Translations under genes and position numbers: made by a program
Source of the DNA: Eledone cirrhosa
Taxonomy: Eukaryota
Reading direction: 5' to 3'
Assembly: GCA_964016885.1 (NCBI GenBank)
Contig: OZ024750.1
Coordinates: 8,122,001 to 8,186,000 of the forward strand
Length of the DNA: 64,000 nt
The notes under the pieces: model-generated
Database searches by the model: none
What the model was told of the DNA's origin: nothing
Seen by the model: only the letters and a program-made list of their open reading frames with translations
Shown: in pieces, positions 1,358 through 54,564 of the stretch
How the letters are laid out: each line of letters begins with the position of its first letter
Numbering within the stretch: position 1 is the stretch's first letter

Positions 1358-3327
1358 ATTGCATCTTGGTACTCAGTGATTCGTATGTAGTTTTGTAAAA
1401 ACTACTTCTAGAAGCTTAACATTTCCGTTAACTCTGTTCTAAACATTTATTCAGTCTCTGACAACCTCTCATTTACAGCAAACGTCTTTTCACTCCACTC
1501 TCTGAATATTCAATCTATATCTGGTGTAATTTCCTGTATATTTTTTTCGAGAACATAATCAGAACATTCATAAACTAGAATTCATATCTAGCTAACTGGT
1601 TCGTTTCCTATGGTTTTATAGATATCATGACTTCAGCTTTTTCCTCAGTCAATCAGTCAGATGCAATTAAGTAAAGTAGATTGCTACTGAAGACATTCAT
1701 ATACATTTTGATATCAGTTGTCTGTAACCGCTGTGGTATTAGAAGTTTCATAGCATATATTTTAGGGAATATATATATATAATCATAACTTTGATTATCT
1801 ATTTAATGTGGAATCTAAGTAAGTATTCATAATTCTTAGCTATCGTATGAGGCTAATGAAACGGATATGGTTCATGAGTAGCTTAATTTTTTAAAGATTG
1901 ATCGCTATAGAAAAGGTATGCAGCCGTGAGTCTCAGAACATTGTAAAGGAGTAACTATACTCTTAGTCCTATATTATGTTAGTAAACATAATTATGTCCG
2001 TACTCATTCTATCGATTGTCTGTACAAGTGAACTCATTATATATCCTACACTTGTATTTATTGCATAAGAATGTTAAGTTATATTAGTCGACATTAATTT
2101 GTGGATACCGGAAATGGAATGATCCATCAAACACCATTAAGGGCATGCATATCATATAACCACACAATGACTGATGTGATTGAATGGGGGGGGGGTCTTC
2201 CAATTCTGGATGAGTGAAGTGATTAGGCTCATTGCTGGTACTTCTGAATTACTAAACTATTTGGTTTTGTGAGTCAATGTTAATAATATTGGAGAAGTGT
2301 CCTCTTCCAATTGAGTTACCTGAAGCCTCTTCGCATTTCATTAACAGATCGCAAACGTTATGGGCCATAGCCAGCTCCAAACATGCTTTCATTGTTTCAT
2401 TCGGTAGAGTGAGAAATTCATATCCTAGCATCAGATAGAGCCGAATAAGGCTTCGTAGCAGTTTTTACGCATCCTTGTAGCAGTAATTGTAGCATTCATC
2501 GTGACCTGTCATATCACCAGTGTGTCTAGACATTTGTGTGATTATAGCATTTACAGTCTTAAATTACAAAAGTTGGTAAGTGATGTAGTTTTCGATTGAT
2601 GCTTTCACACTGACCTTTTATAGCTACTAATTCCCCCAAACCCGTATTTTGTATTCCCTGTAATCCTTATGTCAGCACGTGGAAAAGCTTTTACTAAAAT
2701 TTGATAATTCTATTTAGGCTTCTGAAAGCAGAGTAATTAAAGCAAGTTTTAATCAATATAAATGAAATTTAAAAGAAAATGAAGAACTAAAGGAAATAAA
2801 CAACAAATGCCAACATTTAAACTAAATATAAAACAGAAGACAAATCAAATTGAAATATAAAACTAATTAATTTCTATTTCCTAGTACAATTTTAGTTTTC
2901 ATCAATCTAATGACATTCAGATTATAAAATCTAGAATCCCGATTTCAATGCTTCAGAGAACAGAACGGATATAAGACATTTTACACAATCTTTAAAAGGA
3001 AGCAAGCAACCATATTTCAAAGAAATCACGTCATATTCTCCTAATATATCTGGTAACAAATTAAGAGAAATTCCTAACACGCAGCAACTAAAACTCATTT
3101 GAATAATTGTTTTCTTTATTATGATAATTATATCTGAAACAACAGTTCAATATGTCTTTGCTTTAGCGATTGTAGTTGGTATTATTCGAATTAAAATAGA
3201 CTAAGACGTTAATTTATATCGATAGACAATCGCTTCTCCAAATTTGGTTCATGTGTTCATTGAAATCATATATGATACATAAGGCTGGAATTAAGAGTCC
3301 AATATCCTGTCATATTATTGCATACCA

Positions 3328-9957: not shown

Positions 9958-10146
9958 TTTTCTCTGTAGTGCTCCACTTCCCAATCTTTAACTAAACATT
10001 CCCAATAATCTTTTCTGCTACCAGGCTTTCATCACTCTAAATCTTATTTACCTCAGCATAAGGAAATATATATATATATATATTAGCAGAAAAGATTATT
10101 GGGAATGTTTAGTTAAAGATTGGGAAGTGGAGCACTACAGAGAAAT
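9958..10146. repeat. Inverted repeat (~62-bp arms) around a short (TA)n
   Basis: tttctctgtagtgctccacttcc...ttttctgcta vs tagcagaaaag...gcactacagagaaa. Confidence 0.85.
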
Positions 10147-18632: not shown

Positions 18633-18690
18633 CATCCATCCATCCATCCCTCCCTCCCTCCCTCCCTCCCTCCCTCCTTCCCTATAAATA

Positions 18691-18874
18691 ACGAGGGAAG
18701 TGAGGTAAGGAACCAGGTGGACGATAACGCACCAGAGTACTCGATACTTTGGGTAGTAGAATGGGTAATAGGAAAAGAGTCAGGACCCCGGCTGTATCTG
18801 GAAAGATATATATGAGTCCAGATATAACCGTCGAAACGGCTTGATCTCTGCCATCAGGGTCCTGAACCTTTTCC

Positions 18875-19406: not shown

Positions 19407-19746
19407 TTTCTGTATAGAGTATATATTCATGTTTCTATCAGAAGCTAAATGAAGCTGGAACAAACATGCATACACAAGCAAACATACAGACACACACGAG
19501 TTATGGATAATCAGTTACAACAGTGACATATCAAGGATTTCTACAGGACTAGAACTGTTTCGCTGGATTTACCACGAAATAAAGCAGTTTGCGATACTGC
19601 GACTGAATGAGATGGTATTAAATTCAACTAAATTGAAATATCTGCATATGCCACTGTGGTAACTGATATATATATATATATCGGTGATAACCACAGTAAG
19701 TAAGGTCCCCAATACAAAGCATGGTATAAATATTTAATATAGAAAA

Positions 19747-19797
19747 GTCTTCTACAGGATTAGAACTGTTTCATTCGGGAGAAATCATCAGGAAGCC
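19747..19797 (-). ncRNA. Minimal type I hammerhead ribozyme motif (family A)
   Basis: Minus strand: GGCUUC CUGAUGA UUUC-UCCC-GAAU GAAA CAG-UUCUAAUC-CUG UA^ GAAGAC. Full core, GUA triplet, stem I 5/6 paired. Confidence 0.75.
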
Positions 19798-19954
19798 GAC
19801 TGTCCAAGTAATACGGTGGTATTTATATATTTTCTGGTGGTAACAGGGGCACAGTGAGTGCTAAAAGATAAGTTTATCCCGGGTTCAATCGGGGGTAACC
19901 ACAGTAAGTAAGGTACTCAATACATAGCATAGTATAAATGTTTAACATAGAAAA

Positions 19955-19999
19955 GGCTTCTATAGGACTAGAACTGTTTCATTCGGGAGAAATCATCAG

Positions 20000-20002
<3 letters not shown>
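19955..20002 (-). ncRNA. Hammerhead motif (family A), 5'-truncated at (TA)n
   Basis: UUC CUGAUGA UUUC-UCCC-GAAU GAAA CAG-UUCUAGUC-CUA UA^ GAAGCC. Lies 208 nt from the previous copy; one stem III mismatch. Confidence 0.65.
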
Positions 20003-31644: not shown

Positions 31645-31689
<45 letters not shown>

Positions 31690-31888
31690 CGAAGGAAATG
31701 TGGTGGTAAGGAACCAGGTGGACCATAACGCACCAAAGTACTCAATACTTAGGGTAGTAGAGTGGCTAATAGGAACAAGTAAGACCCCGACGGCTGAGCT
31801 CAAGCCGTTTCGACGGCTAATTCAGGACGGCTAATCCAGAAATAGCCGTCGAAACGGCTTGAGCTCAGCCGTCGGGGTCTTACTTGTT

Positions 31889-32401: not shown

Positions 32402-34463
<2,062 letters not shown>

Positions 34464-35545: not shown

Positions 35546-35800
35546 AAGACTAAAATCGAAAGAGGACTCGATAAGGATTAATATATATCAAATATATAAG
35601 AACCCTAGATCAAATATTTATTAAAATAACAGATTAAAGTTTAAGCAAAGAATCGCTGCTTTCACCCTTAACGGGATGTTCTGAAACTAAAACAAATCTT
35701 TACTTCTGCGTTCACAGATTGATTATTTTAGTTTCAGAAGATCCCGTTAAAGGTGAAAGCAGCGATTCTTTGCTTAAACTTTAATCTGTTATTTTAATAT
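35546..35800. mobile_element. Family C (TA)n-anchored fold-back element
   Basis: Inverted arms ~35620-35692 / 35726-35799. Upstream piece aagactaaaatcgaaagaggactcgataag is shared with 7180-7210. Confidence 0.7.
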
Positions 35801-44573: not shown

Positions 44574-44754
44574 TAGGAACCAGTAAGACCCCGACGGCTG
44601 AGCTCAAGCCGTTTCGACGGCTAATTCTGGACGTCGAAACGGCTTGAGCTCAGCCGTCGGGGTCTTACTGGTTCCTATTACCCACTCTACTACCCCAAGT
44701 ATTGAGTACTTTGGTGCGTTATGGTCCACCTGGTTCCTTACCACATTTCCTTCG

Positions 44755-44755
<1 letters not shown>
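44574..44755. mobile_element. Family B fold-back element in (TA)n
   Basis: Inverted arms 44574-44618 / 44633-44677. Ends ...acatttccttcgt(TA)n. Confidence 0.8.
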
Positions 44756-44801
<46 letters not shown>

Positions 44802-44805
44802 AAGG

Positions 44806-44856
44806 AGCTTCTACAGGACTAGTACTGTTTCATTCAGATGAAATCTTCAGGAAGCT
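44806..44856 (-). ncRNA. Minimal type I hammerhead ribozyme motif (family A)
   Basis: AGCUUC CUGAAGA UUUC-AUCU-GAAU GAAA CAG-UACUAGUC-CUG UA^ GAAGCU. Perfect 6-bp stem I and near-palindromic stem/loop III. Confidence 0.8.
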
Positions 44857-45141
44857 GGGTGTCATATTAAGTTCTGGTATTTATACATTTAGGTAGTGGT
44901 AAGGGAGGGGTGGTGGATCGGGGGGTGGGGGGGATGGTATTTAGATACATAGGACCACTTCATGGCACAGGCCGTTTTTTCTTTGGGGAGTGGTCAATTA
45001 GCCAGAGTGCTTTTTGAAATAAATAAATAAAGTGGTCCTATGTATCTAAATACCATTCCCCCCCAACCCCCAACCCCCAATCCACCACCCCTCCCTTACC
45101 ACTACCTAAATGTATAAATACCAGAACTTAATATGACACCC

Positions 45142-45192
45142 AGTTTCCTGAAGATTTCATCTGAATGAAACAGTACTAGTCCTGTAGAAGCT
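45142..45192 (+). ncRNA. Minimal type I hammerhead ribozyme motif (family A)
   Basis: AGUUUC CUGAAGA UUUCAUCUGAAU GAAA CAGUACUAGUCCUG UA^ GAAGCU. Stem I retained through a U-G wobble. Confidence 0.8.
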
Positions 45193-45278
45193 CCTTCTAT
45201 AAAATAAAAAAATTTTACTCTGCCATGTATTGAGTACCTTACTTACTGTGGTTATCCCCGACTCAACCCGGGACCTAC

Positions 45279-45313
<35 letters not shown>

Positions 45314-45317
45314 TAGA

Positions 45318-45502
45318 TAGGAACGAGTAGGACCCCGACGGCTGAGCTCAAGCCGTTTCGACGGCTAGTTCTGTACTAGCCGTCGAAATGGGTTGAGCTC
45401 AGCCGCCGGAGTCCTACTCGTTCCTATTACCCACTCTACTACCCTAAGTTTGAGTACTTTGGTGCGTTATGGTCCGCCTGGTTCCTTACCACATTTCCTT
45501 CG

Positions 45503-45503
<1 letters not shown>
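45318..45503. mobile_element. Family B fold-back element in (TA)n
   Basis: Inverted arms pivoting at gacggctag-ttctgta-ctagccgtc. Same 3' end as the 44.6 kb copy. Confidence 0.8.
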
Positions 45504-45545
<42 letters not shown>

Positions 45546-54379: not shown

Positions 54380-54520
54380 CTCAGTCCTTTCCTGATGATT
54401 TCTTCTGAATGAAACAGTTCTAGTCCTGTAGAAGCCATTTTTATATTAAACTTGATGTTTACACTCTACTAATATATTGAGTACCTTACTAACTCTGGTT
54501 ACCCACGACTCAACCCGGGA
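54380..54520 (+). mobile_element. Family A hammerhead element, single copy
   Basis: Hammerhead followed by the family tail attgagtaccttactaactctggttacccacgactcaacccggga, then a microsatellite. Confidence 0.7.
54386..54436 (+). ncRNA. Minimal type I hammerhead ribozyme motif (family A)
   Basis: CCUUUC CUGAUGA UUUC-UUCU-GAAU GAAA CAG-UUCUAGUC-CUG UA^ GAAGCC. 4-bp stem I. Confidence 0.7.
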
Positions 54521-54564
54521 CTCTCTCTCTCTCTCACATATGTAAATACAAACACACGCATATA

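What the first reader, a model, noticed from the sequence alone, without database searches (positions are those of the whole stretch)
44797..45279. Hammerhead-ribozyme-carrying small element family (A) with covarying stems, five motifs in 64 kb
Seen: five motifs (19747-19797 -, 19955-20002 -, 44806-44856 -, 45142-45192 +, 54386-54436 +) read stem I-CUGANGA-UUUC(N4)GAAU-GAAA-CAG(N8)CUG-UA^-stem I'. Much of the variation falls where a hammerhead tolerates it: N7 is U or A, and loop II is UCCC, AUCU or UUCU. The outer stem I pair covaries between subfamilies (GGCUUC/GAAGCC vs AGCUUC/GAAGCU), and one change keeps a U-G wobble. Known: minimal type I hammerheads with short stem II and palindromic stem III occur in Penelope-like element pseudo-LTRs and in metazoan non-LTR retrozymes, and can cleave as dimers. 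Inference: this is a high-copy, non-coding, self-cleaving retroelement family, possibly uncharacterised in this lineage. The U-U apposition at the base of stem II is non-canonical.
Basis: partly seen in the sequence, partly recalled or inferred. Interest (0 to 1): 0.85.

Follow-up and report, generated by a model that had tools for sequence, protein, structure and literature searches.

The report
Hammerhead-capped Penelope-like retrotransposon fragments
The five hammerhead motifs are ends of broken copies of a protein-coding Penelope-like jumping gene of the known Hydra group, and its thousands of short palindromic copies stop exactly at the ribozyme's first base, often with an extra G, which likely marks the capped start of an uncut RNA that was likely copied twice during each insertion.

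Summary
The five motifs are real (0 in shuffles). They are not a non-coding element. They are pseudo-LTR ends of truncated copies of autonomous Penelope-like retrotransposons: a 710-aa ORF, TERT-like fold, Hydra-clade motifs, (TA)n targets, 26,985 exact core matches genome-wide. The U-U apposition is already listed for Hydra hammerheads. The U-G 'wobble' is a private mutation. The interesting part is mechanistic. In 90 tail-anchored copies, 46 end at the ribozyme's 5' edge, 29-30 nt below a TATA box. An extra G sits there in 55 of 100 AT-joined junctions, against 1 of 100 at a control junction. Ends do not pile up at the cleavage site. Fifty-nine of 90 carry an inverted arm that starts from a second, nearer site. 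Best reading: the mRNA starts, capped, at the first base of stem I and is mostly uncut. Two cDNAs primed from the two target strands are joined head to head, giving ~150-bp MITE-like palindromes. The window element is a longer version of the same product. Cleavage and transcription were not measured. New member of a known clade, with a testable handle on an open question.

The parts
44792..45030 (-). Inverted arm: element positions about -218 to +20 from the cleavage site, ending at the near start site of reverse transcription
   Evidence: alignment to natural copy L031; 95% complementary arms
44806..44856 (-). Hammerhead of the inverted arm (6-bp stem I, 3-bp stem II after U-U, 4-bp palindromic stem III); predicted cut 3' of 44812
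44878..44885 (-). TATA box, 29 nt upstream of the first base of stem I
   Evidence: sequence; spacing
45027..45279 (+). Distal arm: 3' end of the pseudo-LTR, hammerhead and tail, ending at +93, the far start site
45113..45120 (+). TATA box, 29 nt upstream of the first base of stem I (45142), the inferred transcription start
45142..45192 (+). Hammerhead of the distal arm; predicted cut after 45186; carries a private C-to-T change in stem I
45207..45279 (+). Tail present on one arm only; it is the 5' leader of the ORF in full-length copies and holds a 27-nt box (45227-45253) shared by subfamilies
44756..44796 (.). (TA)n target, left side
45280..45311 (.). (TA)n target, right side
19688..20002 (-). 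Older subfamily, partial tandem: hammerhead cut at stem I (19955-20002), leader to about +120, jump back to about -87, second hammerhead (19747-19797), part of the tail
54388..54521 (+). Third subfamily: copy that starts in stem I, with hammerhead (54386-54436) and full tail

Best explanation
The element at 44792-45279 is one truncated, inverted-repeat insertion of an autonomous Hydra-clade Penelope-like retrotransposon into a TA microsatellite, likely made by two cDNAs primed from the two cut target strands and joined head to head. Shown: ORF linkage, two fixed 3' ends (+11 to +28 and about +90), an inverted arm in most copies, a sharp 5' edge at the first base of stem I, an extra G there, TATA spacing of 29-30 nt, no pile-up at the cleavage site. 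Inferred: RNA polymerase II starts at the first base of stem I, so the hammerhead is the first 51 nt of a capped mRNA and recurs in the downstream pseudo-LTR. The protein starts reverse transcription inside the RNA at two sites below the ribozyme, one per target strand. On the 5' copy both cDNAs run off at the cap after 60-140 nt and give ~150-bp palindromes. On the 3' copy they run further and give the window element and long copies. The ribozyme is kept by selection but is mostly uncut in templates that insert; it most likely acts as a slow, dimer-dependent cutter, which would decap the mRNA or free a unit-length RNA.
For: ORF with RT motifs 1.7 kb upstream of the same hammerhead (L031) and AUG 137-141 nt downstream of the cut in copies that run on. 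Model pLDDT 90.5, best fold match TERT, E 1e-9. Hydra motifs present (against PMC8557442 section 11). 46 of 90 distal arms end at -49 to -36, 14 run past -130, 1 lies between; 46 of 59 inverted arms end at -46 to -35. G at -46 (template C) in 55 of 100 listed junctions against 1 of 100 at a control junction; non-templated rows 55/78 against 1/20, Fisher p 7e-8 (hand counts; test). TATA-to-stem I distance 29 nt in subfamily A1 and mostly 30 nt in A2 and A3. Only 49 AT-joined copies start at the cut, against about 510 at the 5' edge for the same subfamily. The inverted arm reaches more than 8 nt further upstream than the distal arm in 13 of 59 pairs and by about 67 nt in the window, so it is not a copy of the distal cDNA. 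Subfamilies A1 and A2 share 108 of 216 four-fold sites but 44-45 of 51 hammerhead bases, with changes only at N7, loops and one compensated pair. A purified PLE protein cuts and extends both strands and starts at two internal sites (PMC11167929).
Against: No RNA 5' end, cap or cleavage was measured. An extra G can also come from untemplated C addition at any run-off end. Seven of 90 distal arms end within -5 to +3 of the cut (about 3 expected from the neighbouring rate; several have stem I or TA microhomology). The 90 copies are the first on one contig and one pair is a single locus. The pattern comparison 49 versus ~510 uses patterns of unequal stringency. Hammerhead conservation may partly reflect promoter or protein-binding constraint: the tail box is as conserved. 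The count of pairs with two-sided change (2) does not beat shuffles (307/500). Both arms always belong to one subfamily (47 of 47), so two RNA molecules are not shown. In the sister family the extra G is weak (6-7 of 100 rows).
Confidence: 0.75

Rival explanations
1. The short palindromes are a non-autonomous element (retrozyme or MITE) that copies itself as a unit.
For: Very high copy number; MITE-like shape; animal retrozymes derive from PLE pseudo-LTRs (10.64898/2026.07.22.740005, abstract to methods read).
Against: Each palindrome has its own junction; they lack the TATA box; they come in every subfamily of the autonomous element; no array of equal units was seen, and the one 208-nt tandem is a partial tandem.
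Confidence: 0.07
2. One cDNA is made and the inverted arm comes from fold-back copying of that cDNA, closed by microhomology to the TA target.
For: Arms share subfamily in 47 of 47 pairs; junctions often use short microhomology; the near end lies in an AT-rich stretch.
Against: In 13 of 59 pairs, and in the window, the arm without the tail holds upstream sequence that the tailed arm lacks; in the sister family the near end is one fixed base, +20, in 15 of 30 loci.
Confidence: 0.12
3. The stop at -45 is a pause of reverse transcriptase at RNA structure or a splice junction, not the transcript start.
For: In D. virilis Penelope an intron ends at the 5' end of helix I (PMC4209133); A1 and A2 have a pyrimidine run and CAG there.
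Against: Copies keep the A and G that splicing would remove and gain a G, not an exon; A3 has no AG there; stem I is already unwound when the enzyme reaches its 5' strand (inference); spacing from TATA is constant.
Confidence: 0.1
4. The ribozyme cuts efficiently in vivo and a circular unit RNA is the main template for long copies.
For: Purifying selection on the core; full ORFs usually carry an upstream pseudo-LTR, which a circle would restore; proposed in PMC4209133.
Against: Most short copies read through the cut and stop at the 5' edge; no pile-up at the cut. Short copies do not test the template of long ones, so this can hold alongside the best reading.
Confidence: 0.2

Closest known systems
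Hydra clade of C-terminal EN+ Penelope-like elements (Craig et al. 2021, PMC8557442; includes Hydra-1_Obim)
   Same: RW[RK], DKT, CxCX5C linker, CxxC and CxH around E and N of the nuclease, no CCHH, (TA)n targets, hammerhead with U on both sides of stem II and A at the cut as in several listed members.
   Different: Different family: the hammerhead and tail words are absent from the paper's supplement. Unit of about 4-5 kb rather than under 3 kb; stem II only 3 bp; stem III loop 8 nt rather than 1-3; tens of thousands of copies.
Poseidon PAc of Anolis (Frangieh et al. 2024, PMC11167929)
   Same: Two internal start sites that define the tail, both target strands used, uncut RNA the main template, AT-rich targets.
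   Different: Other clade; there the ORF starts inside the hammerhead. The passages read do not map the transcript start or explain inverted arms and run-off palindromes.
Minimal hammerheads of PLE pseudo-LTRs (Cervera and de la Pena 2014, PMC4209133)
   Same: Type I, palindromic stem III, extra base after A9, opposite-strand pairs 100-700 bp apart, low activity, dimer model.
   Different: No G10.1-C11.1 pair; short stem II; position tied here to the inferred cap site.
Non-LTR retrozymes of animals
   Same: Type I hammerhead, PLE ancestry.
   Different: Not head-to-tail arrays of a non-coding unit; directly continuous with the ORF.

Membership tests
Penelope-like element, EN+ | Single ORF with telomerase-like RT | tested here: met
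   710-713 aa ORFs in L088 and L097 with YRDD; best fold match TERT. Pfam alone gave no RT hit; a relative hits RVT_1 at 9e-6.
Penelope-like element, EN+ | C-terminal GIY-YIG nuclease | tested here: met
   Motif at 587-604; weak Pfam hit E 0.012 in L097; relative P0060 passes the cut-off.
Penelope-like element, EN+ | Pseudo-LTR partial tandem, inverted 5' copy, tail at one end | tested here: met
   L097 has hammerheads at 3041 and 8113 around the ORF; inverted arms in 59 of 90. The tail is about 70 nt, longer than the usual 30-40.
Hydra clade | RWK motif, DKT, CxCX5C linker, no CCHH, CxxC/CxH around E and N | tested here: met
   RIRWR, PSDKT (A1; the pattern missed A2), CNCPDKTTC, CDLC..E, N..CMH.
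Hydra clade | (TA)n insertion | tested here: met
   74 of 90 tail ends have a TA run within 45 nt of the box.
Hydra clade | Generally under 3 kb | tested here: not met
   5,072 nt between hammerheads in L097. A tendency in the paper, not a diagnostic.
Hydra clade | Groups with Hydra RTs in a tree | not tested
   Reference sequences were seen only in a supplement and compared by eye.
Type I hammerhead ribozyme | Core CUGANGA, GAAA, UH and three helices | tested here: met
   not the lowest-energy monomer fold.
Type I hammerhead ribozyme | Self-cleavage | not testable with these tools
   Only indirect: no pile-up of ends at the cut.
Non-LTR retrozyme | Non-coding head-to-tail units, each with a hammerhead | tested here: not met
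   Copies are nested truncations of a coding element.

The most novel reading that the evidence does not exclude
The Penelope inverted-repeat-plus-tail signature is the product of twin target-primed reverse transcription, and the hammerhead is a 5' switch: it is the first 51 nt of the capped mRNA, dimerises through its palindromic stem III, and cuts off the cap or brings two RNAs into one complex. Tens of thousands of MITE-like palindromes in this genome are then paired 'strong-stop' cDNAs. The sister family has moved its promoter inside loop II of a U3-A8 hammerhead, so that only the downstream copy is a whole ribozyme.
Probability: 0.45. Interest if true: 0.75.

Novelty: new member of a known kind. 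Interest (0 to 1): 0.55.

Why it matters
What the hammerhead does in endonuclease-bearing Penelope-like elements is called unclear, and how their inverted and tailed ends form is open (PMC8557442). This genome holds a young, very abundant family whose insertion ends record the template: where it started, that it was mostly uncut, and where copying began on each strand. That turns both questions into single-base predictions for CAGE and for an in vitro assay. It also warns that some short palindromic repeats annotated as MITEs or retrozymes in TA-rich animal genomes may be abortive retrotransposition products.

Tried and rejected
Rfam: no hammerhead among the listed rows, only microsatellite-driven miRNA matches. 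Monomer folding: no support for the hammerhead as the preferred fold. Pfam on the element's own proteins and a profile search of PDB sequences: nothing significant. First end-mapping by BLAST failed because the reference panel held fold-back junk; redone with short curated natural references. Sequencing runs: no RNA holder listed; the four runs laid were contigs and cannot show ends. Neptune/Nematis: dropped, the linker and nuclease motifs are Hydra-type. A seeming core-mutant subfamily (43 of 100 control rows) is one hammerhead fragment carried inside another repeat, with shared flanks in 8 of 8 fetched; it was dropped from the 1/20 control count. Mixed-subfamily arms as proof of two RNAs: 0 of 47. 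Lunse et al. on dimeric PLE hammerheads was not held; I saw only a review's passages. Earlier scan notes: none for this genome, none that bear.

Full report
Observation. The five motifs are present as described and absent from 100 shuffles. A sequence-blind type I descriptor recovers 4 of 5, against 0.08 per shuffle. The hammerhead is not the lowest-energy monomer fold of any of them (for 44806: -6.7 against -9.8 kcal/mol), whereas stem III of the 44806/45142 type pairs with a second copy at -15.2 kcal/mol against -1.4 as a hairpin; 36 of 2000 shuffles reach that. This fits the dimer model of PMC4209133 (parts 1-2 of 4 read). The U-G wobble is private to 45142.

What it belongs to. The 40 scored of 1,521 candidates for 45090-45279 are 98-100% identical. 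The core pattern has 26,985 exact matches and the tail box 15,295, with 0 for the reversed controls. Followed upstream, copies pass through a microsatellite-rich region into an ORF (L031, L034, L036). A protein search then gave full-length copies in which hammerhead and tail lead straight into the AUG, 137-141 nt below the cut; L097 has hammerheads on both sides of a 713-aa ORF. The protein has 1,401 relatives at E<=1e-10 among 8,000 scored, models at pLDDT 90.5 and matches TERT best. Its motifs are those given for the Hydra clade (PMC8557442 section 11). That paper's hammerhead table lists U on both sides of stem II for many Hydra members, and lists an octopus member with a different ribozyme (supplement parts 1-2 read); three DNA words of these families are absent from the supplement.

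Selection on the ribozyme. Subfamilies A1 and A2, linked through the protein search, are 528/707 identical in protein and 108/216 at four-fold sites but share 44-45 of 51 hammerhead bases, differing at N7, loop II, loop III and one compensated stem I pair (counted by eye). Neighbouring stretches are 60-70% alike, but the tail box and leader are 80-86% alike, so the ribozyme is not the only constrained part. On ten chosen variants, two stem I pairs change on both sides and stems II and III barely vary; most rows were found with a pattern that fixes the core, and the two-pair count does not exceed shuffles.

The ends. I took the first 90 of the 100 listed tail-box places on contig C1, a sample not selected on the ribozyme. 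Downstream, 74 of 90 meet a TA run within 45 nt of the box, 50 of them at 25-26 nt, and 5 run on into the leader. Upstream, numbering from the cut, 46 end at -49 to -36 (one more ends where its reference ended, at -46), 14 pass -130, one ends at -65, 10 end inside the ribozyme, 7 at -5 to +3 and 11 in the tail. Position -45 is the first base of stem I. Inverted arms were found in 59 of 90 (58 of the 75 short copies; long copies were not fully examined); they end at +11 to +28 and 46 of 59 start at -46 to -35. In 42 pairs the two arms stop within 8 nt of each other, in 13 the inverted arm goes further upstream, in 4 the distal arm. The window element has arms -218 to +20 and -151 to +93: both pass the TATA box, so both came from the downstream pseudo-LTR. 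The copies at 19955 and 54386 start within stem I.

Why -45. A TATA box lies 29 nt (A1) or mostly 30 nt (A2, A3) above it, the usual distance to a polymerase II start (established knowledge). Among copies joined at this point to AT-only flanks, the base at -46, C in the template, is G in 55, C in 22, A in 13 and T in 10 of the first 100 of 871 (hand count). At a control junction seven bases inside, G occurs in 1 of the first 100 of 2,186; dropping 37 templated rows and 43 rows of a passenger repeat leaves 1 of 20, against 55 of 78 (p 7e-8). An extra G is the accepted mark of a copied cap in L1 insertions (PMC11702581, passages). One long copy, L103, begins with this G and runs into the ORF. 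At the cut itself only 49 A2 copies join AT-only flanks, against about 510 at -45 (59 of 100 rows times 871); the patterns differ in stringency, so this is a rough ratio.

Mechanism. Shown: the ends, the G, the spacing, the ORF linkage. Inferred: a capped mRNA that starts with the ribozyme; two internal start sites, as measured for Anolis Poseidon, whose protein also extends both strands and prefers uncut RNA (PMC11167929, parts 1-2 of 4 and passages); one cDNA per target strand; joining of their 3' ends, often by short microhomology. Fold-back copying cannot give an untailed arm that is longer upstream than the tailed one. Both arms always come from one subfamily (47 of 47, 40 with identical loop II, 16% expected at random), which fits one RNA or sibling RNAs. 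How the upstream promoter is restored in full copies (template jump, read-through or circle) is not settled; the 19690-20002 tandem shows that jumps from the leader back into the pseudo-LTR occur. The ribozyme's role is the weakest step: a slow, dimer-dependent cut that would decap the mRNA or release a unit RNA.

Neighbour family B (44578-44757, 45322-45505) is a sister family with 33,828 matches whose tail also leads into an ORF with the same N-terminal motifs (L088). Its hammerhead has a U3-A8 core, a covariation known from Schistosoma, wholly different but paired stems, and a 54-nt stem II region holding a TATA-like box. Its copies end at +20 (15 of 30) or +105 (14 of 30), and 23 of 30 start inside loop II, around 29 nt below that box (some loci are two arms of one insertion). 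The extra G is weak there (6-7 of 100 rows).

Novelty. The element type, its ribozyme, inverted arms, tail and TA preference are known. I found no paper that places the transcript start at the hammerhead's first base, reports a cap-type G or explains the short palindromes as twin run-off cDNAs, in searches (listings only) and in the passages read of PMC8557442, PMC11167929, PMC4209133, PMC2377424 (a TATA-less internal promoter in D. virilis), PMC6765202 and PMC13282606. Subscription papers, Lunse et al. among them, Repbase entries and preprint supplements were not visible and may bear on this. Verdict: new family of a known clade, interest 0.55 for the mechanism its copies expose.

Noticed in passing
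window 44578-44757, 45322-45505, 31687-31888, 33566-33709, 18689-18861: Sister Hydra-like family B as fold-back palindromes holding only the 3' half of a hammerhead; full copies have a U3-A8 core and a TATA-like box inside loop II, so transcription may start inside the ribozyme.
   Followed up: partly
L243-L250 (G000:C1, e.g. 348302): A 55-nt hammerhead fragment captured inside another, young repeat of unknown type; about 43% of 2,186 control-pattern matches.
   Followed up: partly
window 45227-45253: The first 10 nt of the tail box are shared by families A and B despite different ribozymes; a candidate protein-binding site between the two start sites.
   Followed up: no
window 35645-35773: Long perfect hairpin repeat that also flanks L021 and L022; possibly the fold-back end of another TA-targeting element.
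   Followed up: no
window 9968-10137: Another long inverted repeat (about 170 nt) picked up by Rfam as a miRNA-like hairpin.
   Followed up: no
window 19526-19561: A 23-36 nt fragment of stem III of the same hammerhead, 190 nt from the tandem; perhaps a decayed arm.
   Followed up: no
L023, L032, L033: Further, more distant ORFs of the same clade inserted next to family A copies; at least four related families share TA targets.
   Followed up: no
L027, L033, L034: Fragments of a different GIY-YIG ORF (CxxC linker, YIGET motif), likely another Penelope clade.
   Followed up: no
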